A stretch of DNA of 64,000 nt from the NCBI GenBank assembly GCA_964429815.1, contig CAYSCM010000001.1, positions 64,001 through 128,000 of the forward strand, written 5' to 3'. The stretch comes from an uncultured Candidatus Saccharibacteria bacterium (GTDB lineage: Bacteria; Patescibacteriota; Minisyncoccia; Phycocordibacterales; CAYSCM01). Position 1 is the first letter of the stretch; the number at the start of each line of letters is the position of its first letter. Both the position numbers and the translations under genes were made by a program. The notes under the pieces are model-generated. The model was not told the DNA's origin and did not search any database. It was given only the letters and a program-made list of their open reading frames with translations. Below, in pieces: positions 31,418-63,694 of the stretch.

Positions 31418-31449
<32 letters not shown>

Positions 31450-32106
31450 TCATTGTCAGAGAAATTTCACCTCCTTAAGATGCACTGAGCGTTGATTTTG
31501 GGACCTTAACTTGAGATCTAGGCTCTTCCCTTTTTGACCACCGGAGCTTAGCCCCCGGAGTCTAACTGCGTGGTAGTGGAGAACGGTATTTGGAGTTTGA
31601 TAGGATTGACGAGCTTTCGCCCTATTCAATCCTTCCAGTGCTCTACCCCCGTTCTATAAACCACACGCCAGCCCAAAAGCTGTTTCGGAGAGAACCAGCT
31701 ATTACCAGGTTCGATAAGCTTTTCACTCCAACCCACAAGTCATCCGAATGCGTTGAACGACATACCGGTTCGGGCCTCCCCACTCCTTTCGGAGTGGTTC
31801 ACCCTGCTCATGGGTAGCTCACCTGGCTTCGGGTCGTATACGCGCTACTTAGTCGCGCTATTCACACTCGCTTTCGCTACGGCTTCGTCCGACAAAGGAC
31901 TTAGCCTCGCAACGCGCATACACTCGCCGGCTCATTCTTCAATAGGCACGCGGTCACCCGGAAGGATAGAAGCACCCAAGACTAGCCGATGGGTCGTTGC
32001 GGACGCATTGACCCTGTCGAACATGCTTCGATGCTTGTACCCTCCCAGGCTCCCACTCCTTGTAAGCATAGGGGTTCAGGTCTATTTCACTGCCCTCACC
32101 GGGCTT

Positions 32107-32146
<40 letters not shown>

Positions 32147-33192
32147 TTTGAGAATATTTAGCTTTACCGGTCAGTTCCGGCAGGTTCACCCAAGCTAACC
32201 GTGTCTTGGGCTACTCAAGAACAGAAACAAAGAAGAGTCATCATTTTCGTGTACGGGACTGTTACCCCCTGGGGTTTCGCGTTCCAGCGAATTCCACTAA
32301 CAATGACTTTTGTAACTTCTCTTGCATAAATGCAACGTCTCTGCCTTACAACCCCCACTCTCTTGCGAGAATAGGTTTGAGCTCATCCCTCTTCGCTCGC
32401 CGCTACTAAGGGAATTCCAAGAATTTCTCATACGTGGGACGCAGAGACGTCACACATATGAAAAATTCGTTATTGGTTTTTCTTCCTCCAGGTACTGAGA
32501 TGTTTCACTTCCCTGGGTGCGCATCACACACATACGTGTGGATTCTCATCGTAGATGAGAGAGTTTCCTCATTCGGAGATCTCCGGATCAAAGGTTGCTT
32601 AGCACCTCCCCGAAGCTTATCGCAGCTAGGCTACGTCCTTCATCGCTTCTCAAAGCCAAGGCATCCGCCCTATGCTCTTAGGTTTCCTGTCCGGAAACCT
32701 GCAAACCACAATTGTTTGATTGATTTTGATTACTTTACATTACCCACCTCGATTCTCCTTCGAAGAAACGAGGTTCGAATCACGTGATTTGGGTCACGCG
32801 ATTCTCCCACCTCAAACACCCAAAGACCCCAATTTTCGCACATGGGATACGATGTTTTGATGGAATGCAGTTTTCAAAGACTCACACGTGCTCTTGAATT
32901 ATGGAACTTCGCTCCATGCTTCCTTCGCTCGTCCGGAAATGAGAATGCGATTCTCGTTTCTCTCACTTCGCTAGGAAGTAAAAAATCCGCTCTGAAGCGG
33001 ACCGTTGGCTAACCGTATACACGGAATTACCCCCGCCGCTTGCTTTTAAAGCTGATCGAATAATTCATACACGTGGGGAGAGTATATGCCGGAGAGCCCT
33101 ACCTTGTCAAACCGAGGCTGTACTGAGAAAACACCAAGGAAAAGGGCCGCCTTGGGGGCGACCCTGCGCGCGAGCAAGATTCAGCGAGATCC

Positions 33193-42100: not shown

Positions 42101-42704
42101 CCGGCTGGGCTCCGCCTGAGACCATGATGGTTCCTGCTGTGGTGCCTGTGCCGCCGGTCGTGCCGGTGCCGCCGGTCGTGCCGGTCGTGCATGCGGCGTT
42201 CACAGCTGCGCGGGTCTTAGGACCGAAGTAGCCGGCCGCCGGAGCTATCCCGTTGGCGGTCTGGTACTTGCCGAGCGCTGCTGCCGTTTTGCTGCCGAAG
42301 TAGGTGGACTCATTGCCGGGAGAACCCGAACCCGATGCTGCAACCTGAGTCGCCGCTTTCGAGTTTAGGAACTGCTGAAGGGCCTTAACATCCGCTCCCG
42401 AGGAACCGACGGTGAGGCTGCGAGACCAGGTGTACGGGCAGACAGCGGCGCCTGAGGTAGTCGTGCCGCCGGTCGTGCCGCCCGTGGTCGGGAGACCAAG
42501 AAGCGAAGCGTTGACATTGTTGATCGTCGCTTGGTCGGCCCCGAAGGACTGGAGGAGCGAGAGGATTGACTGGATCTGGCTCTGCGTAAGTGCCGCTGCC
42601 TGTGCAGGCGAGGTCACGAACGAGAAGAGCGCGATAGCCATCCCGACAGCAACTGCAACCGCCGCAATTTTCATCACGGCTTTGTTTGTAATGCTGGAAT
42701 TCAT
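39183..42704 (-). CDS. giant secreted surface protein (~1170 aa) with N-terminal peptidoglycan-binding domain and long Thr/Ser/Gly/Val-rich beta-repeat region
   Basis: Signal peptide MNSSITNKAVMKIAAVAVAVGMAIALFSFVTSPAQA. PG_binding_1-like VKALQQFLN...YFGSKTAAALGKYQTANGIAPAAGYFGPKTRAAVNA, flanked by (TTGG)n linkers, then ~900 aa of low-complexity beta-rich repeats. The start is ambiguous (42704 or 42674). Confidence 0.7.
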   Translation of the reverse strand: MNSSITNKAVMKIAAVAVAVGMAIALFSFVTSPAQAAALTQSQIQSILSLLQSFGADQATINNVNASLLGLPTTGGTTGGTTTSGAAVCPYTWSRSLTVGSSGADVKALQQFLNSKAATQVAASGSGSPGNESTYFGSKTAAALGKYQTANGIAPAAGYFGPKTRAAVNAACTTGTTGGTGTTGGTGTTAGTIMVSGGAQPANSLAPTSAVRVPFTNFTITNNSGAPVTVNGVTVQRTGLAADAAFASVVLVDSNGLQIGNTQTFDSNHNATVGGTFTVPAGTSNYTIAGNMGSSLGSYAGQVAAISVVAVNTTATVSGALPITGAANTVNGTLSLGSVTTAISSLDPNAATTKNIGATAVRFTGVRFTAGSAEDLKLFSIRFRINGSASISDVGNLVAVINGTNYPTVVSADGRYVTSSFPGGILVQKGFSIDVVLQGDLTGNNSAGRIAEFDVDKTSDVYFVGQLYGYGVAMAAGSGTVSTASTHATTYTSGQPVFQGSTVTINAGTVTTIQNATSVASQNIPVNVPNTVLGGFVTNFAGEPVTVSGMKFNVTSTGTTSVSEITSVSIVDQNGAVVAGPVDASASIVNFTSSVTFPVGSRTYTLKGKIPSTGWPSGSTVVLNTTPSSWTSPTGQVTGNSITISTTNFTMNTMTVRTLALGVTAAATPASQNVVAGSQNVLFSNIQLDAASSSEDVRLSSLVVRESGTGAVGNLSGCQLFDGATPLNTGSNTLNTVAAGANTITLDNAITIAKGTVKTLGLQCNLSSAATAATTYIFGVNSGDTITYTGVQSGNSLTVLPTTGNSGTLTVSSSASVTLNVDPSSPSYAINAAGTTGVTVGVFRIRSANESFNLIKLGLTAAASSLGKTGAGNTSTAAGDLTQLYIYSGSTLLGTATLTGANTIATSTLISPFTVTRDTDIPLTIKADIAGISVSAPTGVGDLIEVDPSSFEGTGASSGQTVKGSGSSTTAGVRFFKSYPTLSLDSLPSSGVADGRLMRFKVTANSAGPVGVAKFAFSFATTSMNISNVSLYGFTDSSYSQAISGQGTGGQVGATIATPTQGATQVFQPTPNAVQVPSGQTYYFELRGTVTGTATTYSAVTTLKSDTAYQTNLTSGFQVATSGIATSSSNFVWAGNSTTTASLWDGTNGTVDFSNGYSIPGLPSAGLIQARSN

Positions 42705-43406
42705 AACGTAATGGTTACTGTTAATGCCCGTGTGAACGGGCGATTCGCGAGACTCACAGGAGTCGACCCCATGAAGCGCGCGAGGAGTGACCTTTGCATG
42801 AAGTGCTTTCGGCACTCGGTCACGGTTGATAATCACTTTTGTACTATTTCCCTACCCCCGTGGTATCGACCCGGAAGCTAGAGAACTAGTGGCGAAGAGA
42901 GGTGGTTGTTCTGTATGTATTCAGCCGAGGAGGAATAAAGAGTTGCGGTAAACTGAAGCACGAGGGCAGAGCCCTCATTTTTTGAAGAAACGAGTTTTTC
43001 GGTATATGAAATTGTCAACGTCCTTCCGTGCACCCCGGTTCATTTTCCTCAAAAGTTCTGAAATAACTCAGTTAATTCCAAGAAAAACACACTCCCAGAG
43101 CTCCGCCTATTATAGACGCGCTACTTTTGCGCATCAAAACGGACAATGTGGATAACTAACGCCAAAAAAGCCCACAGATTGGTCTTTTTTGGCCGTTTTC
43201 CACGCAGCGCGGAGCATACACAAGAAGACGGCACCGGTCAATGAACATTTCCTCTAAAAAATGGCGCAATACTTGGATACGATGTCAATTTTTAGGCAGG
43301 TTTAGGTTCCTTTGAGAGCTTAAGGCCTTCGGGGACCCTAAAGGGTGGAAGGAGGGGCGCACAAGGTGAAAATGTGGCAACTTAAAAATGTGATAACTCT
43401 GGTAAC

Positions 43407-50856: not shown

Positions 50857-51639
50857 CTAGAAGCCGAAAACCCTCGCCACGTTTTCGCGCAAGGTCGTGG
50901 AAACGCTTTGAAGCGGCTCCCCGCGAAGTTCTGCGATTTTTTTTACGGTCTCGACGACGAAGCTCGGTTCGTTGCGTTTCCCGCGGTGCGGCAACGGTGC
51001 GGCAAAGGGAGCGTCAGTTTCAGCCATTATCATGGAAAGCGGAACTTCTCGTATCGCAGCGTCATAGTCGCGCGCGAACGTGATGACGCCCGGGAACGAT
51101 ACGGTAAAACCGAGCTCGTTGTATCGTTTGGCGATCACCGCGGAACTTGTGAAGAAATGGATGTTGCCGCGAAGGCCGTCTCCCGCTTCCTTTTTGTACT
51201 CACCGAGGAGACAGAGCATTTCCTCATGCGCGCTGCGACAGTGGACCATGAGCGGCTTATCGTGTTTGAGGGCAAAATCGATTTGTCTTCGCAGCTCTCT
51301 CTCCTGCCGCGCGCGCTCTTGTTCATCGACTCCGTCCCTCCGATAGAAATCGAGGCCGCACTCCCCTATCGCCACCACCTTACTCTCCGAGACGAGGACT
51401 CCAAACTCTGTTGGGTCGAATCCCTCCGTCGCGTTGTCCGCGGGATGTAACCCGACCGCGGCCCACACCCCCGGCGAGAGCTTCGCGAGCTCAACGGCAC
51501 GACGCGAACTCTCGAGGTCGACACCGACGGTTATGGTCGAAACATCCGCATCCCGCATACGGGAGAGAACCTTCTCACGGTCACGCTCAAACTCCTTGAA
51601 GGAGACGTGCGAGTGTATGTCGACAAAGCGCGTACTCAT
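50857..51639 (-). CDS. tatD: TatD-family metal-dependent DNase/hydrolase
   Basis: 260 aa. VDIHSHV, GECGLDFYR, and HCRSAHEE motifs. 4-nt overlap with metG. Confidence 0.9.
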   Translation of the reverse strand: MSTRFVDIHSHVSFKEFERDREKVLSRMRDADVSTITVGVDLESSRRAVELAKLSPGVWAAVGLHPADNATEGFDPTEFGVLVSESKVVAIGECGLDFYRRDGVDEQERARQERELRRQIDFALKHDKPLMVHCRSAHEEMLCLLGEYKKEAGDGLRGNIHFFTSSAVIAKRYNELGFTVSFPGVITFARDYDAAIREVPLSMIMAETDAPFAAPLPHRGKRNEPSFVVETVKKIAELRGEPLQSVSTTLRENVARVFGF

Positions 51640-53072
51640 TCTTTTCGTACAAAAAGTGCCCCGGGATTTCTACCTTCGAGGAGCGCATCCTCGACGGTCT
51701 TCGCGATTTTCGGCAGAAACGGTCGCAGCAAGACCGCGATTTCCCCCAGTTCTTCGAGAAGGTAGCGTAGGTGTTCTCGCGCTTTTTCCGGCTCGGTTTT
51801 GATGAGCTTGAACGGCCCAGTATCTTGAATATAGGCGTCAAGCTCACCGATTCGTCCGAAAAGACGGTCGAGCACCCGATTAACCTCAAGCTGCTCGAGA
51901 TGCTCACGATAGTCGTTCTCGACGGAGAGGATCTCCTCGCCTGAGGGGAGCCGGGAAAGTTTTACGCCGAGCGTTGCAGCCATCGTGAGCGTGCGCGACA
52001 CCAAATTTCCCAGCCCGTTTGCCAGGTTGGCGTTGTACGCTTCTTTAAACCCCTCTCGTGTAATATCGCCATCTTCAAAGGGAGATACGTGGCGCAGGAG
52101 GTAATAACGAACCGCTTCCGCGCCATACTCGGAGATAAGCTCCTGCGGGTCGATGACGTTACCGAGCGTTTTGCTCATCTTCTTGCCGCCCGACGTGATA
52201 AAACCGTGCACGAGGATGCGCTTTGGGAGTAAAAGCCCCGCAGAGAGGAGCATCGCGGGCCAGATGGCCGCGTGGAAACGCAGAATATCCTTGCCGATGA
52301 CGTGAAGGTCTGCTGGCCACCATGTCGCGAATGTCTTCTCATCGCGCCCGTAGCCGATCGCGGTTATGTAGTTGGAAAGCGCATCGCACCACACGTACAT
52401 ACGCTGAGAGGCATCGCCGGGCACGGGAATACCGATGGAGACTTTGGAGCTTGGGCGCGAAAAACTTACGTCAGAAAGTCCCTTCGAGAGAAGAGCAAGT
52501 ATCTCCCCCCGACGAGAGGCGGGTATTATTTCGAGCTCGTTGGATTCAATAAGGTCTTTAATGCGGCCGCTATAGCGAGAGAGCCTGAAAAAATAGTTTT
52601 CTTCTGAAAGTCTCTCCGGAGCCGTGCCATGGTCGGGACATTTGCCGTCGACGAGATCCTTTTCCGTGATGAACGCCTCGTGTCCCACGCAGTAGAGGCC
52701 TTCGTAGGAAGCTCGGTAGATATCTCCCGCTTCGAGGAGCTTTCTCCAGAGCGCTTGCGCCCCGGGGTAATGGATATTCTCGTCGCTCGTGCGAATGAAC
52801 TGGTCATACGAGCTCTCGAGAGAGGAAAACAGGGACATAAAGTTCCCGACGATGCCATCAAGAAACGGCTTCACCTCCTGCCCCGCTTCTCTGGCGGCGC
52901 GTACCACTTTTTCAGTGTTTTCATCAGAGCCAGTGAGGAGATAGGTCTCATCCCCCATGAGCCGGTGATAGCGCGCGAGTGCATCTGCAAGCACCGTCGT
53001 GTATGCGTGCCCGAGATGAAGCTTTGCGTTGGGATAGAAGATCGGCGTTGTTATGTAGAATTTCTTCGCCAT
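51636..53072 (-). CDS. metG: methionine--tRNA ligase (minimal form without C-terminal tRNA-binding domain)
   Basis: 478 aa. HLGHAYT (HIGH-type) and KMSKTLGN motifs. Confidence 0.9.
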   Translation of the reverse strand: MAKKFYITTPIFYPNAKLHLGHAYTTVLADALARYHRLMGDETYLLTGSDENTEKVVRAAREAGQEVKPFLDGIVGNFMSLFSSLESSYDQFIRTSDENIHYPGAQALWRKLLEAGDIYRASYEGLYCVGHEAFITEKDLVDGKCPDHGTAPERLSEENYFFRLSRYSGRIKDLIESNELEIIPASRRGEILALLSKGLSDVSFSRPSSKVSIGIPVPGDASQRMYVWCDALSNYITAIGYGRDEKTFATWWPADLHVIGKDILRFHAAIWPAMLLSAGLLLPKRILVHGFITSGGKKMSKTLGNVIDPQELISEYGAEAVRYYLLRHVSPFEDGDITREGFKEAYNANLANGLGNLVSRTLTMAATLGVKLSRLPSGEEILSVENDYREHLEQLEVNRVLDRLFGRIGELDAYIQDTGPFKLIKTEPEKAREHLRYLLEELGEIAVLLRPFLPKIAKTVEDALLEGRNPGALFVRKE

Positions 53073-55520: not shown

Positions 55521-57386
55521 TTATGGTTGTACCACTCCTGCCGCTCCCGAACCACCTGCGCCTTGCGTTGTGAGGGCGGAAGCGGTTGCCGAGACGTTCG
55601 AGCCCGTGAAGCGGTCGACACCCGAGAGAGACTGCTCCCCTACCAGGGTCGGCATCGAGCCGACCTGACTGCTACTTGGCGTGAAGGAGATATCGAACAC
55701 CGCCTGCTGCAGTGCGCTACCCGCGGCGAGATTATCGATCTGCCATGTCACCATACCTCCTACCTGACTGTAGGAAACGGCACTACTGCCGCTGCCGACG
55801 TACGCAACGTACGAAGGAAGAGCGGCGGTGACACGCGCATCCCCGACCTGGTTTGCGGAATTTTTCGCGATGAGCGTTACGCGATAGCGGCTTTCCGTGT
55901 TCGCTTTGGGTAAAGCAGGACCGGAGAGCATCGAGATGGATGAGGTAAGCGAGAGATCTGAGGATATTTTGACCATGCGGGTGAGCGAAGCCTCGACGCT
56001 CTCCGGGACATTTTGCTCCGAGAGCCGGCTCCCCTGTGCGGAGACCGAAAGCTTTATCTGCGGATTACGTAGCCCCCCGGAGAGAACGACGGGGGAGAAA
56101 CTGAACGAGAAGTGCCCTGATTGGCCAGGCGCGATAGAGACAAGCTCCGCGCTCGTGTCGCGGTTCCAGAGGATGGTATTGTCCGAGCTTCGATAAAAGC
56201 CCTCCTCCGAGATGATGCTCCCCGGATTGAGCCCGGCACCGGAGAACGAGAGCGCTATTTGCCCGTCGGTAATGGGCACAGTGAGGTTGTTGTTCCAAGT
56301 GAGGTCGCCGCGGATCATCGCTCCCGGGGTGGCGACGTAAGGATCGCTCGAAGCGCCATTGAGTGCGAGGTCTATCGATATGAACGGCTTCTTGACCGTG
56401 ACCGATTGGGAAACATCCGTGAAAGCCGCTTTCAACGAGCGCTCATCGGTATCGCTCTGAAGCCCCGCCTGGAAACGGAACAGGCGCTCTTCGCTATCCT
56501 GCCCCTGGAGAACACCAGTGAGTGTCACGCTTTTTTTATCCCCAGGCGTCAGCGTCCCAAGGTTCCATACCGTGCTGCCGTAGGTCGCCCGTGGAGAGGC
56601 GGAGGTGAATGTGAAGCCGAAGGGGTAGGTGGCGTTGAGGAGGACGTTCTGAAGTGGCGTCTGTGAGTTGCTCGTCACATCAACCGTGAAAGAGAGAGCT
56701 TGGCCCGAGACCGTTTCCGTCGGGGCTTTGACCGTAATGGAGAGCGGTGAGGACGAGAGGAGAACAGGATATACCACGTCCTTGTAGAAGATGGCGTTGC
56801 TTCCCTCGACACGATACTCGACCGTGATCTTAATGTCTTTCTCTGAGCGCTCCTGTCCGAAGAGGACGGCATGAATGGTCTTTTGAGCGCTCCCTCCCGG
56901 AGCGATATCCCCTATCGAGAGCCGGTCGCGCGAGAGTTCGACCCCGATATTCCCTGAGGTACGCGTACCGTCCGGGTACTCGACGATGAGGTCCGCGAGC
57001 TGGATGGGTGTCGCGTTGGCGTTCCTCACGCTCACCTGGAGGGTGAGCTCATCGCCGCCGGAAATTGTGGTGGGTCCGGCAATATCGATGGCCAAGTTTT
57101 GGGCCGAGACTACGTTACCGCCGCGCAGATAGAAGAACGCACCGAAGGCGACCGCGAGAGCGAAGAACGCCACCGATAGGATGAGGACGGTAGCGGGACG
57201 GAAATAACGTGAACGCTCCGCACGGGAAATGACGTCGGCGACCGGGGCCGAGAGGTCCGTGTGGCTCCACGTGCGCGGCGTAGACTCGTCATGTTGGTAG
57301 AGCACTCGCCGCTCACGGGTGAGCTGCGGCTCCTCACGCGAGTAGAGCTTCTTCTTGAGCTTATCGATGCTTCCCTCGGGCTCCAT
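55521..57386 (-). CDS. large signal-anchored surface protein with beta-sandwich repeats (hypothetical)
   Basis: 621 aa. ~70-aa cytoplasmic N-terminus, one TM (ATVLILSVAFFALAVAFGAFFYL), then a Ser/Thr/Val-rich beta-rich ectodomain. Confidence 0.5.
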   Translation of the reverse strand: MEPEGSIDKLKKKLYSREEPQLTRERRVLYQHDESTPRTWSHTDLSAPVADVISRAERSRYFRPATVLILSVAFFALAVAFGAFFYLRGGNVVSAQNLAIDIAGPTTISGGDELTLQVSVRNANATPIQLADLIVEYPDGTRTSGNIGVELSRDRLSIGDIAPGGSAQKTIHAVLFGQERSEKDIKITVEYRVEGSNAIFYKDVVYPVLLSSSPLSITVKAPTETVSGQALSFTVDVTSNSQTPLQNVLLNATYPFGFTFTSASPRATYGSTVWNLGTLTPGDKKSVTLTGVLQGQDSEERLFRFQAGLQSDTDERSLKAAFTDVSQSVTVKKPFISIDLALNGASSDPYVATPGAMIRGDLTWNNNLTVPITDGQIALSFSGAGLNPGSIISEEGFYRSSDNTILWNRDTSAELVSIAPGQSGHFSFSFSPVVLSGGLRNPQIKLSVSAQGSRLSEQNVPESVEASLTRMVKISSDLSLTSSISMLSGPALPKANTESRYRVTLIAKNSANQVGDARVTAALPSYVAYVGSGSSAVSYSQVGGMVTWQIDNLAAGSALQQAVFDISFTPSSSQVGSMPTLVGEQSLSGVDRFTGSNVSATASALTTQGAGGSGAAGVVQP

Positions 57387-57407: not shown

Positions 57408-57998
57408 TCAAAGCTGCGTTTGGGCAAGGACTTCGTTGACGAGCTTCACCGCAGCAGGACGATCAGGGATGAACTCCCGACAAAGCCCTCGCTCGAGTAC
57501 GCCTGTGAGATAGCGCTGCCACTGCGGTTTCGGAAGACGATAGCCAAGCTCGGAGAACACGCGTAGTACGAGGATGCTCTCAAAGGCTTTGAGCTCCTCC
57601 AGCTCAAGGGGAAGGTCTGGAAGAAGGGTGAATGCGTCGACGATAGTGTCGAAAAGGGGCGTATTTTGTTCCTCGCCAGCGACGAGACGACCAAGAAGGC
57701 GCATCACGCTAGCGACGAGACGCATTTTGTCAGGAAAGTCCTTGAGGCTTCGGTAGAGGCTCAGCTCGGCGGACGCGCCCCGAACTCTCCAGACGCCGCG
57801 CCCGCGCACGAGCGTTACATCAATGAGCGAGAACGGTTCGAGTGCAAAGCGCAGCTTCGAGCGTGCCTCGCGCACGCTCGCGCCGACGGCACGTAGGAGA
57901 CCGCACTCACGAGTGAAAAGCTCTACGAGGCGATCTGATTCGCGCAGCGGATGCGCACGCAGGACGAGCGCGCGTGTTTGGATCGCAAGGACGGCCAT
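57408..57998 (-). CDS. recO: DNA repair protein RecO
   Basis: 196 aa. N-terminal OB-fold signature ALVLRAHPLRESDRLVELFTRECG and C-terminal helical domain. Classic position in the ileS neighbourhood. Confidence 0.7.
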   Translation of the reverse strand: MAVLAIQTRALVLRAHPLRESDRLVELFTRECGLLRAVGASVREARSKLRFALEPFSLIDVTLVRGRGVWRVRGASAELSLYRSLKDFPDKMRLVASVMRLLGRLVAGEEQNTPLFDTIVDAFTLLPDLPLELEELKAFESILVLRVFSELGYRLPKPQWQRYLTGVLERGLCREFIPDRPAAVKLVNEVLAQTQL

Positions 57999-57999
57999 A

Positions 58000-60900
58000 T
58001 CAAAGTTTCGCTATCGCGATGTACACCGCTCCTGCGTCGAGTTCCACCGTATCTCCTGCGATGTCGGGCTCGAAGCGCACGTCCATGGCCCCGGTCTCGA
58101 GCTTAAGCTGGGAGAGGTACTCTTCGACGAGGTTTCGTCCGGGGGAATCCGCCCGCACGTTGATGAGGATGCGATCATTGGGTTTGAGGGCGAGTTCCTT
58201 GCGGGAATCCTGGATGGCGCGTACAAGTTCGCGAAAATCGCCTTCCCGCATAAGTTCCTTCGTGAGCGTGGTGTCGAGAGAAACGGGTTCCAAAAGCTTC
58301 TGGTCAACGAGGAATTTTTTGACATTAAGTTCTTCCTCAATAATGGAAAAAAACTCTGCGGGAATACGTTCCCGAGCGGTGAGTGAGGAGAGCGGTTGAC
58401 GCACCCGAATACCCACTTTCGCACGAGCCTCGAGACCGGCAGTCACGACGTCGCGAACCTCCTTCATCTGAGCAAGGAGCGTGAAATCGACATCGCCTGC
58501 CTTTGGCCATTCGAGAAGATGAACACTCTCCCCCTGCGCACCTACCGCAAGATGAATCTCTTCCGCAATGAAAGGCATGAGCGGGGCGACGAGCTTTGCG
58601 ACGATCGAGAGCGCCTCGCGTTGTCCTGCAAGCGCAAAGCGCTTGTCCGCCGCGTCAGTGCCTTTCACGCGCTCCCGAGAGCGGCGCAGGTACCACGTCG
58701 AATAGTCCTCGATAAACGCTCGTAGACTCCGACAGGCGCGCGGCGTATCGTAGCGCTCAAACGCGTCTGCCACTTCAGCCGTCGTCTCGTCGAGGCGCGC
58801 AAACATCCAGCGGTCGAGAATGTTGCGGCTTTGCCGAGCGTTCGTGGTGCGGTCGTCCTCTTTCCCGTACAGCTCGTAGAACTTGAGACAGTTCCGTAGC
58901 ATACCAACGACGCGATTATGGATGTCGCGCACGTCCTCGTCGCGGAATTGAATGTCTTCCGATTGCATGACGACGGAGCCCATGAGGTAGAAACGATACG
59001 CGTCAGCGCCGTAGCGATCGAGGAGCGTGAGCGGATCGGTGTAGTTGCCTTTCGACTTGCTCATTTTGTTGCCGTCCGCGGCCAGGATGTTCCCCGTCGA
59101 GACGACGTTTTTGAAGGAGGTACGCCCAAAGAGCGCGACCGCGACCGCGTGCATGTAGTAAAACCACGTGCGTGTCTGCGCGATGTACTCGGCGATAAAA
59201 TCGGCTGGGTAGCCACGGCGTCGACGCAAGAATCCGCTGCGTGGCTCGAAATGCGGGAGAGCGGAGCCGAGGTAGTGACTCTGGGCGAACGGCATCGAGC
59301 CGCTTTCGACCCAGCAGTCTATGACCTCGGGAATGCGCTCATACTCGCGTCCTTCCGCGTCGAGGAGCGTTAGGGTGTCGGTGTAGGGCCTGTGGAGGTC
59401 TATTTCGAACGCCTCATCGTGCGGCAGCGGCTTGAACGCAAAGACCTTAAACTCCGCGTTGTCGAGCCAGACGGCATCAAAACGGCCGACCTCGGAAGCG
59501 GTACGCGGTATAGAATTGCCGTGCACGAGCGCGTGAAGCTCTCGCAACGGCGATTCGTGCGAGACGATAAGGATGTTCTTCTTCGCGTAGCGTTGGTCGA
59601 CGTCGTAGATGAAGCGCCCTACCCGTACTCGTACATCGGTATAGTTTTCGCCGCCATCCGGCCGCTTCACGTACGCGACAGAAAATTCCCCGTAGAATTG
59701 GTGGTACGCCGAGACAGGTTTGCCGTCAAAAGTGCCTACGTTCACTTCGCTAAGGCGCTCATCGTAGATGATGTCGTTGGGAGAAATTCCCCACTGCTTC
59801 GCAAGAAGCTCCGCACTCTCTCGCGCACGCACGACGGGAGAAGCGAAGATGACGTCGGGCTTGTCGATGCGCGTACCTGCCTCACGGACCTGGAGCTCGC
59901 CGAGTTTCGTAAGATGATTATCCGCATCGGGGCGCGAGCTCACGAATCCCTCTTCGTTGCTCTTAGCCTGCCCATGGCGCATGATCGTGTAGCGATTCCC
60001 CGAGCCCTTTGCTCTTTCGCGAAGCTCGGCAAGAGAACCGATGACCAGTACGCGGGAACCCCCTTTCTCTTTCCAAATAGGAAGCGGCGATGCCCAGTAG
60101 CGATTGCGCGAGATGGTCCAATCGGGCGCGCTCTCGAGGATGTTCTTGAAGCGGCCGCGCTTCAGGTGCTCGGGAACCCAGGTTATCGTTTCGTTTTCGG
60201 AGAGCATCCTCTTCTTTATCTTTTGGATATTGATGAACCATGACGACACGGCGTTGTAGATGAGCGGCGTTCCGCAGCGGTAGCAGTGCGGGTAGGAGTG
60301 CGTATGCTGCTCCCGCGCGAAGAGGAGGCCACGTTTGTCGAGATCCGCCTTGATGTCTCCCTCGGCCTCCTTTATATAGCGCCCGTGGAGAAATTCCGGC
60401 ACGAGCTCGTTGTAGGCCGCCGATGGCGAGAGAAGCTGTATCATCGGGAGCCCCTCTTTCTGCCCTAGCGCAAAGTCATCCTCGCCGTACATGACGGCAG
60501 TATGGACGATCCCGGTCCCCTCCTTGGTCGAGACAAAATCAGCCGCGAGCACTTCGTGATGCTTCCCTGGGTGAGAGACGACCGGTGCCACCGCGTAGAG
60601 CGGCTCGTAGGTTATGCCGACGAGCTCGCTGCCTTTAAAGTCGCGCTCGGTGGAGTACGTCCGGCCGAGCGGAGCGAATGTTTTGTCGACGAGGTTTTTC
60701 GCGATGAGGTAGTGGGATCCTCCCGTCTCGGTAAAATTGAGTCCCTCCATCTCTTTCTTGCCTCGGTAGACCAGGCTGTAGTCGATGTCGGGCCCGACCG
60801 CAAGCGCGACGTTCCCCGGAAGCGTCCAGGGCGTCGTCGTCCACGCGAGGAGGTAGGTGTTCTCCGGAAGATTGTACGCGGTCGCGTTTGTTATTCTAAA

Positions 60901-61545
60901 GCGTACCGTTACCGCCTCCTCCGTGATGTCCTTGTAGGTGTGGTCCATCGCGATCTCAGCCTTAGCGAGCGGTGTTTCGCAGTGCGGACAGTACATGAGG
61001 ACACGCTTACCTTCGTAGAGAAGGCCTTTCCCGTTCATTTCCGAGAGCGCCCACCAAACGCTCTCGATGTAGTCGTTGTCCATCGTCTTGTAGGCGTCCT
61101 TGAACTCGACCCAGCGTCCGATGCGGTCCACGTAGCGCTCCCAATCGCTCGCGAACTGGAGCACGGAGGCACGCGCTTCGGCATTAAACTTAGCGACCCC
61201 TATTCTTTCAATGTCTTTCTTCGTTTTGAGGCCGAGCTTCTGCTCGATGAGCGTCTCGATAGGCAGCCCGTGGCAATCCCACCCCCACTGTCGAAGTACG
61301 CGGTAGCCGCGCATGGTCTTGTAGCGCGGGAATACATCTTTGACGACCGACGAGAGGAGGGATCCGTGGTGCGGAAGCCCGGTGGCGAACGGAGGGCCGT
61401 CATAGAAAATAAATTCCCCGCGGGGGGCGTCTTTTCCTTCGGATTTCTTGAAAATGCCGCGCTCTTTCCAGTATGCCAACACCTTCTCTTCCCGCGCCGC
61501 AGTATCGCTCTTTGCGGATTCGTGAGCCTTCATTGAGAGCTTCAT
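58000..61545 (-). CDS. ileS: isoleucine--tRNA ligase with an inserted histidine-phosphatase (PGAM/SixA-like) domain
   Basis: Start MKLSMKA (the ORF-track start at 61608 lies inside a terminator hairpin). HIGH motif (GLPHHGS), CP1 editing domain, WTISRNRYWASPLPIW, then a ~190-aa insert containing RHG (IMRHGQAKSN), RARESAELL, YDERLSE and SHES (ILIVSHESPLR), then KMSKSKGN, the anticodon-binding domain and C-terminal extension. Total ~1181 aa. Confidence 0.9.
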   Translation of the reverse strand: MKLSMKAHESAKSDTAAREEKVLAYWKERGIFKKSEGKDAPRGEFIFYDGPPFATGLPHHGSLLSSVVKDVFPRYKTMRGYRVLRQWGWDCHGLPIETLIEQKLGLKTKKDIERIGVAKFNAEARASVLQFASDWERYVDRIGRWVEFKDAYKTMDNDYIESVWWALSEMNGKGLLYEGKRVLMYCPHCETPLAKAEIAMDHTYKDITEEAVTVRFRITNATAYNLPENTYLLAWTTTPWTLPGNVALAVGPDIDYSLVYRGKKEMEGLNFTETGGSHYLIAKNLVDKTFAPLGRTYSTERDFKGSELVGITYEPLYAVAPVVSHPGKHHEVLAADFVSTKEGTGIVHTAVMYGEDDFALGQKEGLPMIQLLSPSAAYNELVPEFLHGRYIKEAEGDIKADLDKRGLLFAREQHTHSYPHCYRCGTPLIYNAVSSWFINIQKIKKRMLSENETITWVPEHLKRGRFKNILESAPDWTISRNRYWASPLPIWKEKGGSRVLVIGSLAELRERAKGSGNRYTIMRHGQAKSNEEGFVSSRPDADNHLTKLGELQVREAGTRIDKPDVIFASPVVRARESAELLAKQWGISPNDIIYDERLSEVNVGTFDGKPVSAYHQFYGEFSVAYVKRPDGGENYTDVRVRVGRFIYDVDQRYAKKNILIVSHESPLRELHALVHGNSIPRTASEVGRFDAVWLDNAEFKVFAFKPLPHDEAFEIDLHRPYTDTLTLLDAEGREYERIPEVIDCWVESGSMPFAQSHYLGSALPHFEPRSGFLRRRRGYPADFIAEYIAQTRTWFYYMHAVAVALFGRTSFKNVVSTGNILAADGNKMSKSKGNYTDPLTLLDRYGADAYRFYLMGSVVMQSEDIQFRDEDVRDIHNRVVGMLRNCLKFYELYGKEDDRTTNARQSRNILDRWMFARLDETTAEVADAFERYDTPRACRSLRAFIEDYSTWYLRRSRERVKGTDAADKRFALAGQREALSIVAKLVAPLMPFIAEEIHLAVGAQGESVHLLEWPKAGDVDFTLLAQMKEVRDVVTAGLEARAKVGIRVRQPLSSLTARERIPAEFFSIIEEELNVKKFLVDQKLLEPVSLDTTLTKELMREGDFRELVRAIQDSRKELALKPNDRILINVRADSPGRNLVEEYLSQLKLETGAMDVRFEPDIAGDTVELDAGAVYIAIAKL

Positions 61546-61552
61546 TCTAGCC

Positions 61553-61585
61553 GCAATACGTGAAAGAAAAAAGCCGCCCCAGGGG
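61553..61585 (-). terminator. intrinsic terminator/attenuator (GCCGCCGCACCCCUGGGGCGGC + U6) 8-30 nt upstream of the ileS start codon
   Basis: 9-bp GC stem plus U-tract on the minus strand, directly after the small upstream ORF. Confidence 0.6.
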
Positions 61586-61629
61586 TGCGGCGGCTTGCGG
61601 GCCGACACTAGGGTGCCGGCCCGGGGACT

Positions 61630-61896
61630 CTAGGCAGATTCGGTGTAGGGGAGGCGAAGATCGAGATGGCCGTGATCGATGCAGCCCTGCCAACGAGCAA
61701 GCGCCGAGAAGCGCTCGCGAGTTTCGCGGTCCGCGTCATCAATGCCGGAGACCGGTATGGTACGCGCAACGCGCCTACCACAGGGAGTCGAAAGAACTTG
61801 TTTGCGCAGGATGCGGCTGGGGTTCAGTACGGCACGCAGCATGCGCTCGAGGTCGGCCGGGCTTTTAGCGTCGTTTTGGTAAAAAGACTCGGTCAT
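61630..61896 (-). CDS. small hypothetical protein (88 aa)
   Basis: ORF between argS and ileS on the same strand, followed by a terminator. Start taken at MTESFYQND. Confidence 0.4.
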   Translation of the reverse strand: MTESFYQNDAKSPADLERMLRAVLNPSRILRKQVLSTPCGRRVARTIPVSGIDDADRETRERFSALARWQGCIDHGHLDLRLPYTESA

Positions 61897-62023
61897 GGGA
61901 ACCTCATATCGCAAGCTACTGTTCGCCCCAGGCTATCAGAAACGCCATGAACCGTTCGTGAACCGTCTCACGAATAAAGACCCTACGTGCAGCAAGGTTT
62001 CAACGTGACAGCAATGAACACCG

Positions 62024-63694
62024 CTACATTTTTTCAGGTGCGACGATGCCGAGGAGCCAGAGCCCATTTTTCATCGTCTGGGCGAAGGCCCCCGTGAGTG
62101 AGAGCTTGTACGCTGCGTAGTCCTTATCGTCAACGATGCGCTCAGCTGCGTAGAAACTATTGAAAGCTCCCGCAATTTGCGTGAGGTAGGTCGTAAGATA
62201 GTGCGGCTCATACTCCGCTGTAGCGCGCGCGACGACTTCCGGGAATCTATAGAGGAGCCGTTCGAGCTCGTAGGACTTGGCGGGAGGATTCTCACTATCA
62301 GCTTCCACCCCCATCTCGTGCGCCTTCGCGATGACCGAAGCCGCCCGAGTATGCGCATATTGAATGTATGGCCCCGAGTCTCCCTCGAGCGACACGGACT
62401 TCTCCGGGTCGAACACGATATCCTTCCCTGTTCCCTGCCGCAGGATGGAGTACTTGATCGCCGCAACGGCGACATCGGCCGAAAGGGTCCCTTCCATCGA
62501 GCGGGTTTCCTTCATGCGCTCCCGCACAAGGACCTCCACATCCTCGATGAGCGATTCGCCGCTCACGATGTTGCCTTTGCGCGAGGACATCTTGCCGGAG
62601 GAGAAACGCATCATGCCGTGCGCGATGTGCCGGATTTTGTCGGCGATATCGGGAAAAATCTTGCGCATTGCGGCGATGACAACCTTGAAGTATTCCGCTT
62701 GTTCGGAGGCGGTGACGGTGATTGAGATATCTGAAGACCACGTTTTTTCCTTAAGTTTGGCGAGGCCGAGCTCTTTCGCTTCGTACGTCGGAAAGCCATC
62801 CCTGGTGAGAAATACGCGCGTGTGGAGGGCGTGGCGCTCCCCGCGAAATACCGTCGCTCCGTCGCTTTTTTCAAAGACATCCGGCCGGCTCTCCACAATC
62901 GTCCTGCCGACCGAGCCCGTCTCGCTCTCAAAAAAGAAATAGTCGAACCGTGTACCGAGTTTACGGTAAATTTCGTCGAAATGATCCAGGGATGTTTTTT
63001 TTCCTGCCTCGTAGAGCGCGCTTATTTTTGCATCACTCTTTTCGTAGATTTTACGATTTATAGCGACGATTTCCTCCCTGGCCCCCGCATCACGTTCGTA
63101 AGCTTCTGAACCCGCCACATAAGCTTTGCCTAGGTCTTCTATGCTCGAAGCGTCGAGGTCATGCTTTTGTAATGCCCAGATCGCCTTCGCCACATGCGGC
63201 CCCACATCGCCCTGGTAGTTGGCGCGATTTATCGTCGCACCGGAGAATTCGATGATGCGAGAAAGCGATTCCCCGATCGCGTTGCTCATGAGATGCCCGA
63301 TATGAAAAACCTTGAAGGGGTTAGGCTGCGTGTACTCCACCATCACCCGCTTGTCCTTAAGGGCTTCGCTGCGTCCGAAGCGCTCGCCCTCATCGGCAAT
63401 AAGCCCGATTGATTCTGCAAAAAAAGTTCGCGACAAATGGACGTTTATGAAGCCTGGCCCCGCACTGTCGATACTCTCTATAAAGGGATGATTCTGTTTC
63501 GCGAGATTTCCTCGAAGCACCTGGGCCACCTCGTGCGGCGCCTGTCCGGTCGTCTTCCCGAGCACGAGGGCAATGTTGCTCGCAAAATCCCCATGAGAGA
63601 GGTCGCTTGGATGCTCGAGCGTAAAAGAAATAGCCGGAAATTTCGCGCTTGTGCGCGCCTCCTCGAAAGCTTGTATGAGCTTTTCTCTGACCAT
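62024..63694 (-). CDS. argS: arginine--tRNA ligase
   Basis: 556 aa. N-terminal Arg_tRNA_synt_N, HIGH motif FHIGHLMSNAIG, C-terminal DALR anticodon-binding domain. Confidence 0.95.
   Translation of the reverse strand: MVREKLIQAFEEARTSAKFPAISFTLEHPSDLSHGDFASNIALVLGKTTGQAPHEVAQVLRGNLAKQNHPFIESIDSAGPGFINVHLSRTFFAESIGLIADEGERFGRSEALKDKRVMVEYTQPNPFKVFHIGHLMSNAIGESLSRIIEFSGATINRANYQGDVGPHVAKAIWALQKHDLDASSIEDLGKAYVAGSEAYERDAGAREEIVAINRKIYEKSDAKISALYEAGKKTSLDHFDEIYRKLGTRFDYFFFESETGSVGRTIVESRPDVFEKSDGATVFRGERHALHTRVFLTRDGFPTYEAKELGLAKLKEKTWSSDISITVTASEQAEYFKVVIAAMRKIFPDIADKIRHIAHGMMRFSSGKMSSRKGNIVSGESLIEDVEVLVRERMKETRSMEGTLSADVAVAAIKYSILRQGTGKDIVFDPEKSVSLEGDSGPYIQYAHTRAASVIAKAHEMGVEADSENPPAKSYELERLLYRFPEVVARATAEYEPHYLTTYLTQIAGAFNSFYAAERIVDDKDYAAYKLSLTGAFAQTMKNGLWLLGIVAPEKM

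What the first reader, a model, noticed from the sequence alone, without database searches (positions are those of the whole stretch)
58000..61545. Isoleucyl-tRNA synthetase with an embedded, apparently catalytically complete histidine-phosphatase (PGAM/SixA-like) domain
In ileS, the stretch between the conserved WxISRxRYW motif and the KMSKS loop is ~315 residues, against ~140 in E. coli IleRS. The extra ~190 aa (roughly nt 59440-60030) contain, in order, IMRHGQAKSN (RHG nucleophile motif), ASPVVRARESAELL (second Arg), YDERLSE (catalytic Glu) and ILIVSHESPLRELHAL (SH proton-donor His). That is the full catalytic set of branch-1 histidine phosphatases such as dPGM, SixA and fructose-2,6-bisphosphatase. 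Flanking IleRS sequence resumes normally, through HYLGS...KMSKSKGN. A phosphatase nested in the catalytic core of an aminoacyl-tRNA synthetase is not a standard IleRS feature. It could act on a phosphorylated tRNA end (2',3'-cyclic or 3'-phosphate), on a nucleotide alarmone or Ap4A, or be a regulatory module. All of these functional ideas are speculation.
Basis: partly seen in the sequence, partly recalled or inferred. Interest (0 to 1): 0.85.

Follow-up and report, generated by a model that had tools for sequence, protein, structure and literature searches.

The report
Phosphatase domain nested inside isoleucyl-tRNA synthetase
This bacterium's isoleucine-charging enzyme carries a complete, apparently active phosphatase inserted in one of its surface loops; hundreds of related uncultured bacteria have the same pairing, in several arrangements, and I found no paper describing it.

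Summary
The minus-strand ORF 58000-61545 is a type-2 IleRS (TIGR00392, 797 bits). About 200 aa (aa 513-713) replace about 6 aa of Priestia megaterium IleRS2, and they match Pfam His_Phos_1 at E=4.8e-29.

The insert sits at the tip of the CP3 subdomain. It is not CP3 itself and not a misassembly: all 120 best homologues, from independent Patescibacteria (CPR) assemblies, carry it. In 251 embedded copies the catalytic residues are almost invariant (His524 in 251/251, Arg573 in 251/251).

New findings:
- In Staskawiczbacteria-like genomes the same phosphatase subfamily is a separate ~190-aa gene between argS and an insert-less ileS (6 of 6 contigs). The window has the same argS-ileS-recO order.
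- Other lineages insert His_Phos_1 domains at two further IleRS loops, sometimes in 2-3 copies. One ValRS has four copies, and one TsaC protein has a C-terminal fusion.
- No other partner appeared among the 148 closest protein clusters.

This is therefore a conserved functional pairing between an active PhoE-like phosphomonoesterase and adenylate-forming tRNA enzymes. The substrate is unknown. My leading guess, about 30%, is proximity-coupled clearance of a small phosphorylated ligand or product. No paper describing the architecture was found.

The parts
58000..61545 (-). ileS: type-2 (eukaryote-like) isoleucyl-tRNA synthetase, 1181 aa, including the insert
   Evidence: ORF. TIGR00392 scores 797 bits, above the 621 cut-off. 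Best PDB sequence matches are IleRS2 8c8v and T. thermophilus 1ile. The AF2 model has mean pLDDT 88.2 and pTM 0.80, and its Foldseek top hits are IleRS2 structures.
60094..61545 (-). N-terminal part of IleRS, aa 1-484: first half of the Rossmann fold (HIGH variant 'HHGS', aa 59-62), CP core, CP1 editing domain (WTTTPWT aa 235-241; GTGIVH aa 343-348), CP2, and the CP2-3 linker WTISRNRYW (aa 476-484)
   Evidence: Pfam tRNA-synt_1 covers aa 22-513. The editing motifs are invariant in the 72-sequence alignment. Linker nomenclature follows PMC7955072.
60010..60093 (-). N-terminal half of CP3, aa 485-512 (ASPLPIWKEKGGSRVLVIGSLAELRERA). The first CxxC of the Zn knuckle is lost in this clade
   Evidence: The model shows beta-beta-alpha: E490-493, E499-501, H505-511. 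Relatives keep W(K/R)CxxC at this position. CP3 is defined in PMC7191050.
59407..60009 (-). Inserted histidine-phosphatase (His_Phos_1, branch 1) domain, aa 513-713
   Evidence: Pfam PF00300 at aa 521-679, E=4.8e-29. Boundaries come from the alignment to 8c8v. pLDDT is 93-97 over aa 511-680. The domain-only model has pLDDT 89.8, and Foldseek gives TM 0.72-0.78 to PhoE, PspA and 9mmh.
59971..59979 (-). R523-H524-G525: the RHG motif, with His524 as the predicted phospho-accepting nucleophile
   Evidence: H524 is present in 251/251 embedded homologues and R523 in 249/251. Both are also invariant against 65 standalone homologues.
59827..59829 (-). R573, the second phosphate-pocket arginine (in SPxxR)
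   Evidence: Present in 251/251 embedded homologues.
59746..59748 (-). E600, the predicted general acid/base (in DERLxE)
   Evidence: 244 Glu and 7 Asp out of 251.
59557..59559 (-). H663, the second catalytic histidine (in LIVSH)
   Evidence: Present in 250/251 embedded homologues.
59311..59406 (-). C-terminal half of CP3, aa 714-745 (EIDLHRPY...IPEVIDCW). The second CxxC of the Zn knuckle is lost
   Evidence: IleRS2 alignment resumes at query aa 714. Relatives keep CxxCGG at this position.
58000..59310 (-). Remainder of IleRS: second half of the Rossmann fold, KMSKS (aa 827-831, nt 59053-59067), anticodon-binding domain (aa 911-1053) and the type-2 C-terminal DUF5915 domain (aa 1080-1180)
   Evidence: Pfam Anticodon_1 and DUF5915.
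62024..63694 (-). argS, the upstream neighbour. In relatives the standalone phosphatase gene lies between argS and ileS
   Evidence: ORF. The argS-ileS-recO order is found in most loci. The order argS - His_Phos_1 - ileS is seen in L055, L081-L084 and L086.
57408..57998 (-). recO, the downstream neighbour (conserved synteny)
   Evidence: Pfam RecO_N.

Best explanation
What it is (shown). This is a real type-2 IleRS from a Patescibacteria (CPR, Paceibacteria-like) genome. A complete ~200-aa PhoE/PspA/CobC-like histidine phosphatase is nested at the tip of the CP3 subdomain. In this clade the insert takes the place of the Zn-knuckle turn.

Chemistry (inferred from the family). His524 attacks a phosphomonoester and becomes phosphorylated. 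Arg523, Arg573 and His663 hold the phosphate. Glu600 protonates the leaving group and then activates water.

System level (shown by comparison). The phosphatase and the synthetase form a conserved pair:
- The same subfamily is either a separate gene directly upstream of an insert-less ileS, or it is inserted in IleRS at CP3.
- Related His_Phos_1 domains sit at two other IleRS loops, sometimes in 2-3 copies.
- One ValRS carries four copies, and one TsaC protein carries a C-terminal fusion.

Mechanism I commit to (inferred, about 30%). The link survives as a separate protein, at different loops, and in tandem copies. What is selected therefore looks like proximity and 1:1 co-expression, not precise geometry. 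On this reading the domain removes phosphate from a small diffusible ligand or product common to enzymes that turn ATP plus an amino acid into an acyl-adenylate. Candidates are PPi, AMP or another adenosine phosphate, which would relieve product or ligand inhibition locally. The identity of the substrate is not shown.
For: Identity and integrity.

Purifying selection on the catalytic set: H524 and R573 in 251/251, H663 in 250/251, R523 in 249/251, E600 as 244 Glu plus 7 Asp. The same residues are invariant against 65 standalone homologues.

Lineage-wide occurrence: all 120 best homologues carry PF00300. About 55 of 80 GTDB loci have the insert, across Paceibacterota, Kaiser-, Adler-, Nomura-, Zambryski-, Taylor-, Lipton-, Colwell-, Doudna-, Peregrini- and Peribacteria.

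Operon-linked standalone form: the order argS - phosphatase - (0 or 1 small ORF) - ileS - recO occurs in 6 of 6 contigs with enough flank. Standalone proteins are closer to the CP3 inserts (89-100 bits) than to PhoE or PspA (52-58 bits).

Other insertion sites and copies: L057 and P0241/P0245/P0247/P0248 carry the domain between the catalytic and anticodon-binding domains. P0480 has copies at two sites and P0451 at three.

Partner specificity: of the 148 clusters classified (148 of the 150 closest listed), 98 are IleRS-embedded, 1 is a ValRS with four copies, 1 is a TsaC fusion, and 48 are phosphatase-only (standalone proteins or fragments). No unrelated partner was seen.

Small-molecule type: the nearest solved structures are all small-molecule phosphatases.
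Against: - No substrate has been tested. PPi hydrolysis is not an established activity of branch-1 histidine phosphatases, and hydrolysing AMP would waste energy.
- Part of the association could be inherited synteny from a few events. The Staskawiczbacteria-type contigs may represent a single event. The tree used to count events is neighbour-joining without support values.
- The site-2 domains are no closer to the CP3 inserts than to PhoE, so their common origin is unclear.
- The TsaC fusion is one 3.7-kb contig.
- I could not obtain model coordinates, so the position of the phosphatase active site relative to the tRNA 3' end or the adenylate site is unknown.
- I could not check whether these genomes lack a canonical pyrophosphatase.
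Confidence: 0.4

Rival explanations
1. Hitchhiker. The phosphatase is a housekeeping metabolic enzyme, for example a broad-specificity or phospho-amino-acid phosphatase. It happened to lie next to ileS and was captured in a permissive surface loop. It is kept because its own function is needed, with no mechanistic link to aminoacylation.
For: - The nearest relatives are small-molecule metabolic phosphatases.
- CP3 is a variable, surface-exposed subdomain that tolerates other fillers. L079 has a low-complexity filler there. P0505 also carries a RAYT-like transposase domain and a GNAT domain.
- The argS-ileS-recO order is conserved regardless of the phosphatase.
- The standalone form works as a separate protein.
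Against: - The same or related domains were inserted at three or more IleRS loops, in a ValRS and on a TsaC. No unrelated partner appears among the 148 closest clusters. That pattern is unexpected for random capture.
- Tandem amplification within the synthetase (P0400, P0451, P0480) is also unexpected for a hitchhiker.
Confidence: 0.25
2. tRNA-end phosphatase. The domain removes a 2'- or 3'-phosphate from the tRNA acceptor end (or another tRNA phosphate), so that damaged or processed tRNA can be repaired and charged on the same enzyme.
For: - All partners are tRNA-related enzymes: IleRS and ValRS handle A76, and TsaC makes the donor for t6A37.
- CP3 starts right after the WxISRNRYWG linker, which lines the tRNA CCA pocket (PMC7955072).
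- The best NCBIfam phosphatase hit is the RNase H/acid-phosphatase fusion family.
Against: - No histidine phosphatase of this branch is known to act on RNA ends.
- Several different insertion sites and a freestanding form argue against a geometry-dependent hand-over.
- It is unclear why only IleRS and ValRS would need this.
- The nearest structures are small-molecule enzymes.
Confidence: 0.15
3. Built-in protein phosphatase. The domain reverses inhibitory phosphorylation of the synthetase, in the way HipA and HipT-type kinases inactivate class I synthetases near the KMSKS loop. It would act as cis-acting protection.
For: - Members of the superfamily act on phospho-His, Ser, Thr or Tyr proteins: SixA, PGAM5, Sts (general knowledge).
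- Acting in cis would tolerate several attachment points.
Against: - No kinase targeting IleRS, ValRS or TsaC is known.
- No kinase gene lies in the conserved neighbourhood.
- The domain resembles the small-molecule subfamilies, and SixA is not among the NCBIfam hits.
Confidence: 0.07
4. Detoxification module. The phosphatase, and the GNAT domain found in some relatives, inactivates phosphorylated amino-acid or aminoacyl-adenylate mimics that target IleRS or ValRS.
For: - P0505 has both a phosphatase and a GNAT domain inserted in IleRS.
- NCBIfam has a curated 'ileS_w_GNAT' family.
- GNAT enzymes such as MccE and RimL detoxify aminoacyl-nucleotide antibiotics (general knowledge).
Against: - The known IleRS inhibitors (mupirocin, thiomarinol, SB-203207, reveromycin) carry no phosphomonoester.
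- There is a single co-occurrence example.
- The idea is purely analogical.
Confidence: 0.05
5. Catalytically dead structural spacer, or an assembly or annotation artefact.
For: None beyond the unusual architecture.
Against: - The catalytic residues are near-invariant in 251 copies.
- The predicted fold is confident.
- The frame is uninterrupted.
- The same architecture occurs in hundreds of independent assemblies.
Confidence: 0.02

Closest known systems
CP1 editing domain of class Ia synthetases (IleRS, ValRS, LeuRS)
   Same: It is an autonomous hydrolytic domain nested by two linkers inside the Rossmann-fold catalytic domain of the same enzymes.
   Different: The fold and chemistry differ: aminoacyl-ester hydrolysis against phosphomonoester hydrolysis through phospho-His. 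The insertion point differs: CP core against the CP3 tip. CP1 is universal, whereas this insert is restricted to Patescibacteria. CP1 is still intact here (WTTTPWT and GTGIVH motifs).
PhoE/YhfR, PspA phosphoserine phosphatase, CobC alpha-ribazole phosphatase, the riboflavin-pathway histidine-family phosphatase (PDB 9mmh), GpgP
   Same: They share the His_Phos_1 fold and the catalytic Arg-His / Arg / Glu / His set. Foldseek TM is 0.72-0.78 and sequence E-values reach 1e-10.
   Different: Those enzymes are freestanding and have defined small-molecule substrates. The insert scores far below every NCBIfam equivalog cut-off, so no substrate can be transferred to it.
Rv2228c / RnhC bifunctional RNase H - acid phosphatase (NCBIfam PRK07238)
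   Same: A CobC-like histidine phosphatase is covalently joined to a nucleic-acid enzyme. It is the best NCBIfam phosphatase hit for the insert (70.8 bits).
   Different: It is an end-to-end fusion, not a nested insertion. The partner differs. The score is well below the cut-off of 326.
IleRS with an N-acetyltransferase domain (NCBIfam NF040702, ileS_w_GNAT)
   Same: It is an IleRS carrying an extra enzyme domain. One relative, P0505, carries both a GNAT and the phosphatase.
   Different: The window protein has no GNAT domain and scores 313 bits against a cut-off of 1999.
CP3 Zn-knuckle of T. thermophilus IleRS; the leucine-specific domain of LeuRS
   Same: They are lineage-specific modules in the same stretch between the CP2-3 linker and KMSKS. 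Many relatives keep CxxC...CxxC on both sides of the phosphatase (PMC7191050).
   Different: Those modules are small and non-catalytic. Here a 200-aa enzyme is inserted, and in the window's clade the cysteines are lost.

Membership tests
Histidine phosphatase superfamily, branch 1 (Pfam PF00300) | Profile match above the curated threshold | tested here: met
   101.8 bits against 21.7, E=4.8e-29, aa 521-679.
Histidine phosphatase superfamily, branch 1 (Pfam PF00300) | RHG motif with the nucleophilic His after strand 1 | tested here: met
   R523-H524-G525 is present. H524 occurs in 251/251 homologues.
Histidine phosphatase superfamily, branch 1 (Pfam PF00300) | Second Arg and second His of the phosphate pocket, plus the branch-1 Glu proton donor | tested here: met
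   R573 in 251/251, H663 in 250/251, E600 as 244 Glu plus 7 Asp.
Histidine phosphatase superfamily, branch 1 (Pfam PF00300) | Alpha/beta phosphoglycerate-mutase-like fold | tested here: met
   The AF2 domain model has pLDDT 89.8 and pTM 0.87. Foldseek probability is 1.00 and TM 0.72-0.78 to PhoE, PspA and 9mmh.
Histidine phosphatase superfamily, branch 1 (Pfam PF00300) | Phosphatase activity through a phospho-His intermediate | not testable with these tools
   Requires an enzyme assay of wild type against H524A.
Cofactor-dependent phosphoglycerate mutase (dPGM) | Score above the equivalog cut-off | tested here: not met
   dPGM_arch scores 69.5 against 225. PRK01295 scores 30.6 against 316. GpmB scores 28.7 against 261.
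SixA phosphohistidine phosphatase | Score above the TIGR00249 cut-off (74.5 bits) | tested here: not met
   It is not among the 25 best families. The 25th scores 28.3 bits, so any unlisted hit is below the cut-off.
CobC alpha-ribazole phosphatase / PspA phosphoserine phosphatase | Score above the equivalog cut-off | tested here: not met
   TIGR03162 scores 63.3 against 162.9. PspA scores 50.5 against 350.
Isoleucyl-tRNA synthetase, type 2 (eukaryote-like) | ileS equivalog model above its cut-off | tested here: met
   TIGR00392 scores 797.1 against 621.4, in two stretches interrupted by the insert.
Isoleucyl-tRNA synthetase, type 2 (eukaryote-like) | Class I signature motifs HIGH and KMSKS | tested here: inconclusive
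   KMSKS is present at aa 827-831. HIGH reads HHGS, with Ser at the fourth position. This variant is common in the clade and is not tied to the insert.
Isoleucyl-tRNA synthetase, type 2 (eukaryote-like) | Intact CP1 editing motifs | tested here: met
   In the 72-sequence alignment, every WTTTPWT residue (aa 235-241) and G343, G345, V347 and H348 of the GTGIVH motif (aa 343-348) are invariant; T344 and I346 are at least 90% conserved.
Isoleucyl-tRNA synthetase, type 2 (eukaryote-like) | Type-2 C-terminal domain rather than the type-1 Zn-binding domain, and closest structures being type-2 enzymes | tested here: met
   DUF5915 covers aa 1080-1180. The best PDB hits are IleRS2 8c8v and Tt 1ile at E about 1e-197 to 1e-187, against type-1 1ffy at 1e-84. 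Foldseek agrees.
Mupirocin-resistance IleRS MupA/MupB; ileS_w_GNAT | Score above the exception-model cut-off | tested here: not met
   MupB scores 667 and MupA 630 against 1900. NF040702 scores 313 against 1999.
Intein or other self-splicing / mobile insertion | Hint/intein or homing-endonuclease domains at the insert boundaries | tested here: not met
   Only His_Phos_1 is detected in aa 513-713. The boundaries join conserved CP3 elements directly.

The most novel reading that the evidence does not exclude
Patescibacteria have evolved a second cis-acting catalytic accessory module for class Ia synthetases, comparable in status to the CP1 editing domain. It would be a histidine phosphatase whose activity is mechanistically coupled to aminoacylation, for example built-in clearance of PPi, AMP or another adenosine phosphate, or dephosphorylation of the tRNA end. 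It has been recruited repeatedly: as an operon partner, at three or more loops of IleRS, in ValRS, and on TsaC.
Probability: 0.4. Interest if true: 0.85.

Novelty: new variant of a known kind. Interest (0 to 1): 0.72.

Why it matters
Aminoacyl-tRNA synthetases are among the best-studied enzymes. New catalytic domains inside their cores are rare, and the CP1 editing domain is the classic case.

Here an intact phosphatase is conserved inside, or directly beside, IleRS across a large part of the Candidate Phyla Radiation. Related copies occur in ValRS and on a t6A-pathway enzyme.

If the activities are coupled, this would reveal an unrecognised requirement of translation in these ultra-small symbionts, such as product clearance, tRNA repair or protection of the enzyme. 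It would also give a natural example of how an operon neighbour and an internal domain can interconvert.

The case is directly testable, because a single H524A mutation should separate the two activities. The insert also appears to disturb automated naming: many of these proteins are labelled only 'class I tRNA ligase family protein'.

Tried and rejected
- Misassembly or frameshift: rejected. There is one frame with no compositional break, and hundreds of independent homologues exist.
- The insert is simply CP2 or CP3: rejected. CP3 is the host, and its two halves flank the insert (PMC7191050).
- dPGM, SixA, CobC or PspA membership: all below cut-off or not listed.
- A remnant of a standalone phosphatase gene in the 415-bp argS-ileS spacer: none found by tblastn (best E=1). 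No Rfam element such as a T-box is present there.
- Another His_Phos_1 gene in the window: none. MetRS, ArgRS and the class II synthetase in the window carry no insert.
- Small ORFs between the phosphatase and ileS in L083, L084 and L085: unrelated to each other.
- More TsaC-phosphatase fusions: a metagenome scan returned only the phosphatase half, again either next to or inside ileS.
- Correlation of the HxGS variant of HIGH with the insert: not strict.
- Literature: nine full-text searches; the six aimed at this architecture found no description of it.
- Source contig of the window protein: the exact look-ups failed.
- AlphaFold-database fold search: the library was unavailable.
- Geometry of the phosphatase site relative to the tRNA or adenylate site: not possible, because model coordinates and PAE are not exposed.
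- Presence or absence of a canonical pyrophosphatase in these genomes: not testable with 64 kb plus 12-kb loci. A paper check was uninformative.

Full report
**1. The observation**

The region holds one long minus-strand ORF, 58000..61608. The likely start is the ATG at 61545, which gives 1181 aa. A public protein 100% identical over 1177 aa exists, and a cluster member of 1181 aa exists as well.

Pfam finds five families:
- tRNA-synt_1, split into two stretches
- His_Phos_1 (PF00300) at aa 521-679, with E=4.8e-29 and 101.8 bits against a gathering score of 21.7
- Anticodon_1
- tRNA-synt_1g
- DUF5915

NCBIfam's ileS equivalog TIGR00392 scores 797 bits against a cut-off of 621, again in two stretches.

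GC content and skew show no break across the insert.

Alignment to Priestia megaterium IleRS2 (PDB 8c8v) pairs query 13-512 with residues 8-478, and query 714-1083 with residues 485-852. About 200 residues (aa 513-713, nt 59407-60009) therefore stand where the reference has about six.

The only correction is that the distance from WTISRNRYW to KMSKS is 342 aa rather than about 315.

**2. Not an artefact, and not private to this genome**

All 120 best homologues are 52-64% identical to the window protein. They come from NCBI, JGI, ENA and Logan assemblies, are named Kaiserbacteria, Adlerbacteria, Paceibacterota, Parcubacteria or Minisyncoccia where named at all, and all carry PF00300 together with the IleRS domains.

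A scan of GTDB species genomes returned 80 loci. In about 55 of them, the stretch between WxISRNR and EVxDCW is 236-293 aa and contains RHG. In insert-less relatives it is 75-106 aa. The lineages include Paceibacterota, Adler-, Nomura-, Zambryski-, Taylor-, Lipton-, Colwell-, Doudna-, Peregrini- and Peribacteria.

An exhaustive search of 1.84 billion cluster representatives with the insert alone found 558 clusters at E<=1e-10.

**3. Where the insert sits**

Structural papers on Candida and yeast IleRS define the linker ARDWNVSRNRYWG as the CP2-CP3 linker, which lines the tRNA CCA pocket. They define the next ~60 residues as the CP3 subdomain. In T. thermophilus IleRS, CP3 carries a zinc-binding motif (PMC7191050, PMC7955072).

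The window sequence reads as follows:
- WTISRNRYW, then ASPLPIWKEKGGSRVLVIGSLAELRERA
- the phosphatase
- EIDLHRPYTDTLTLLDAEGREYERIPEVIDCW

Many relatives keep W(K/R)CxxC before the insert and CxxCGG after it (L012, L013, L025, L036, L039, L041-L049, L052). The phosphatase is thus nested at the tip of the CP3 Zn knuckle. In the window's clade the four cysteines have been lost.

The full-length AlphaFold2 model has mean pLDDT 88.2 and pTM 0.80, with pLDDT 93-97 over aa 511-680. It shows the beta-beta-alpha element of CP3 before the domain. Its best structural matches are IleRS2, yeast IleRS-tRNA complexes and T. thermophilus IleRS.

**4. The phosphatase looks active**

In 251 CP3-embedded copies the catalytic residues are conserved as follows:
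- His524: 251/251
- Arg523: 249/251
- Arg573: 251/251
- His663: 250/251
- Glu600: 244 Glu plus 7 Asp
- Asn530: 236/251

The same residues are invariant when the window domain is aligned with 65 freestanding homologues.

The domain-only model has pLDDT 89.8 and pTM 0.87. It superposes at TM 0.72-0.78 on the following (sequence hits):
- a riboflavin-pathway histidine-family phosphatase (9mmh)
- PhoE/YhfR
- mycobacterial hydrolases
- PspA phosphoserine phosphatase
- TIGAR
- GpgP
- CobC

It is below every NCBIfam equivalog cut-off for dPGM, GpmB, CobC and PspA, and SixA is not among the listed hits. It should therefore be called a PhoE-like phosphomonoesterase of unknown substrate, not a mutase or a SixA.

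The IleRS part also looks functional. KMSKS, the CP1 editing motifs and the anticodon-binding domain are conserved. The HIGH motif reads HHGS, a variant common in the clade and not strictly linked to the insert.

**5. The pairing recurs in several architectures**

*a. Standalone gene next to ileS.* An HMM of the insert found a freestanding ~190-aa homologue in L055 (Ca. Staskawiczbacteria). Its stop codon overlaps the start of an insert-less ileS. A search with that protein found 445 relatives, all ~190 aa with PF00300 only.

In four of four sampled contigs, and again in L086, the gene order is argS - phosphatase - (0 or 1 small unrelated ORF) - ileS - recO. The window has the same argS-ileS-recO order, which is widespread in Patescibacteria.

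The standalone proteins are closer to the CP3 inserts (89-100 bits) than to PhoE or PspA (52-58 bits).

*b. Site 2.* In L057, and in P0241, P0245, P0247 and P0248, CP3 is uninterrupted. A His_Phos_1 domain (E=2.5e-37) lies instead between the end of the catalytic domain (FFTTYANID) and the start of the anticodon-binding domain (NPLDRW). SR1-like sequences carry a shortened version that lacks the Glu segment.

*c. Site 3 and multiple copies.*
- P0480 (1419 aa) has copies between HYPF and FPADFIAEG, and at site 2.
- P0451 has copies in CP3, at site 3 and at site 2.

*d. Other partners.*
- P0400 is a ValRS (NF004349, 411 bits) with four copies.
- P0453 is a TsaC (Sua5_yciO_yrdC) with a C-terminal copy of the same subfamily. 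It comes from a single 3.7-kb contig.
- P0505 is an IleRS with a RAYT-like transposase domain, the CP3 phosphatase and a GNAT domain at site 3.

*e. Partner specificity.* I classified 148 of the 150 closest clusters listed (ValRS and TsaC identities):
- 98 are IleRS-embedded
- 1 is the ValRS
- 1 is the TsaC fusion
- 48 are phosphatase-only (standalone proteins or fragments)

No unrelated partner appears.

*f. Tree.* A neighbour-joining tree without support values groups the CP3, site-3, ValRS, standalone and TsaC-fused domains apart from PhoE, PspA and 9mmh. The site-2 group is basal.

**6. How it most likely works**

Shown:
- an intact IleRS
- an intact, strongly conserved histidine-phosphatase active site
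- a conserved and repeatedly re-created physical or operonic link between this phosphatase and IleRS, ValRS or TsaC

Inferred from the family: catalysis runs through phospho-His524, with Arg523, Arg573 and His663 binding the phosphate and Glu600 acting as acid/base.

Inferred from the comparative pattern: the link works as a separate protein, at three or more different loops, and in tandem copies. Selection therefore seems to act on proximity or stoichiometry rather than on a fixed geometry. The partners share one chemistry: ATP plus a beta-branched amino acid gives an acyl-adenylate plus PPi, and later AMP.

My committed reading, at about 30%, is local removal of phosphate from a small ligand or product of that chemistry (PPi, AMP or another adenosine phosphate).

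The alternatives, with my estimates:
- Hitchhiking housekeeping phosphatase, about 25%. This is favoured by the small-molecule relatives and the permissive loop. It is disfavoured by partner specificity and repeated insertion.
- tRNA-end phosphatase, about 15%.
- Cis-acting protein phosphatase that counters inhibitory phosphorylation, about 7%.
- Detoxification of phosphorylated inhibitors, about 5%.
- A dead domain or an artefact, effectively excluded.

None of these could be discriminated further here. Model coordinates are not exposed, and whole genomes could not be profiled.

**7. Comparison with what is known, and novelty**

The closest analogue in concept is the CP1 editing domain, a hydrolase nested in the same catalytic domain. 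The closest in sequence and fold are PhoE, PspA, CobC and 9mmh. The closest fusion precedents are the RNase H-acid phosphatase Rv2228c family and NCBI's IleRS-with-GNAT family.

The architecture is visible in precomputed domain tables. Nine full-text searches were run; the six aimed at this architecture found no paper describing it.

I rate it a new variant of a known kind: a known synthetase and a known phosphatase fold, in an undescribed, lineage-wide and recurrent nested arrangement. Interest is 0.72.

Noticed in passing
L055:5893-9422; L081-L084; L086:4992-8341: Standalone ~190-aa homologues of the insert lie directly upstream of an insert-less ileS, often with overlapping stop and start codons. 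The conserved order is argS - phosphatase - ileS - recO, mostly in Staskawiczbacteria-like genomes.
   Followed up: yes
L057:4471-8370; proteins P0241, P0245, P0247, P0248, P0273, P0275, P0350: There is a second IleRS architecture. His_Phos_1 is inserted between the catalytic domain (after KMSKS and FFTTYANID) and the anticodon-binding domain. SR1-like versions lack the segment that holds the catalytic Glu and may be degenerate.
   Followed up: partly
Proteins P0480, P0451, P0400: Some synthetases carry several copies. IleRS P0480 and P0451 have 2-3 phosphatase domains at different loops, including a third site between HYPF and FPADFIAEG. ValRS P0400 has four His_Phos_1 copies.
   Followed up: partly
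Protein P0453; locus L085:977-2140: A TsaC (Sua5_yciO_yrdC, t6A pathway) protein is fused at its C-terminus to a phosphatase of the same subfamily. It is known from one 3.7-kb contig only. A metagenome scan found no second example.
   Followed up: partly
Protein P0505: This IleRS has a RAYT/IS200-like tyrosine-transposase domain in frame within the editing-domain region. It also has the CP3 phosphatase and a GNAT acetyltransferase domain at the third site. Compare NCBIfam NF040702, 'ileS_w_GNAT'.
   Followed up: no
L079 (Ca. Doudnabacteria), CP3 region of ileS: At the same CP3 position there is a ~45-aa low-complexity, Gly/Arg/Ser/Pro-rich filler instead of a phosphatase. This shows the loop tolerates other insertions.
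   Followed up: no
window 61363-61374 (aa 59-62): The class I HIGH signature reads HHGS, with Ser in place of the fourth His. HxGS is the majority form among the closest homologues. It also occurs in some insert-less relatives, so it is not tied to the phosphatase.
   Followed up: partly
window 61566-61596 and 61630-61914 (minus strand): A GC-rich hairpin followed by TTTTTT, resembling an intrinsic terminator, lies about 20 nt upstream of the ileS start. Upstream of that is a 94-aa ORF with no match, inside the 415-bp argS-ileS spacer. The consensus scanner did not list the hairpin, because its loop exceeds 8 nt. No Rfam element is present there.
   Followed up: partly
window 18519-19980 (16S), 29465-32691 (23S), 28916-29021 (5S), 16544-16616 (tRNA-Ile GAU): The rRNA genes are unlinked: 16S and 23S lie about 9.5 kb apart. 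The 23S match spans 3227 nt against a 2925-position model, which implies about 300 nt of insertions. tRNA-Ile(GAU) lies about 1.9 kb downstream of 16S and does not encode CCA. These are typical CPR features.
   Followed up: no
window 51669-51765: ARAGORN calls a tRNA-Ser(GCU) inside the metG ORF (51636-53072). Rfam's tRNA model does not support it at its gathering score, so it is probably a false positive.
   Followed up: no
window 39183-42836, 55521-57386, 10479-12305: Three large ORFs stand out. One is 1217 aa with only a peptidoglycan-binding domain. One is a 621-aa DUF11 surface-type protein next to recO. One resembles a type IV secretion coupling protein. All fit a cell-surface, episymbiont lifestyle.
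   Followed up: no
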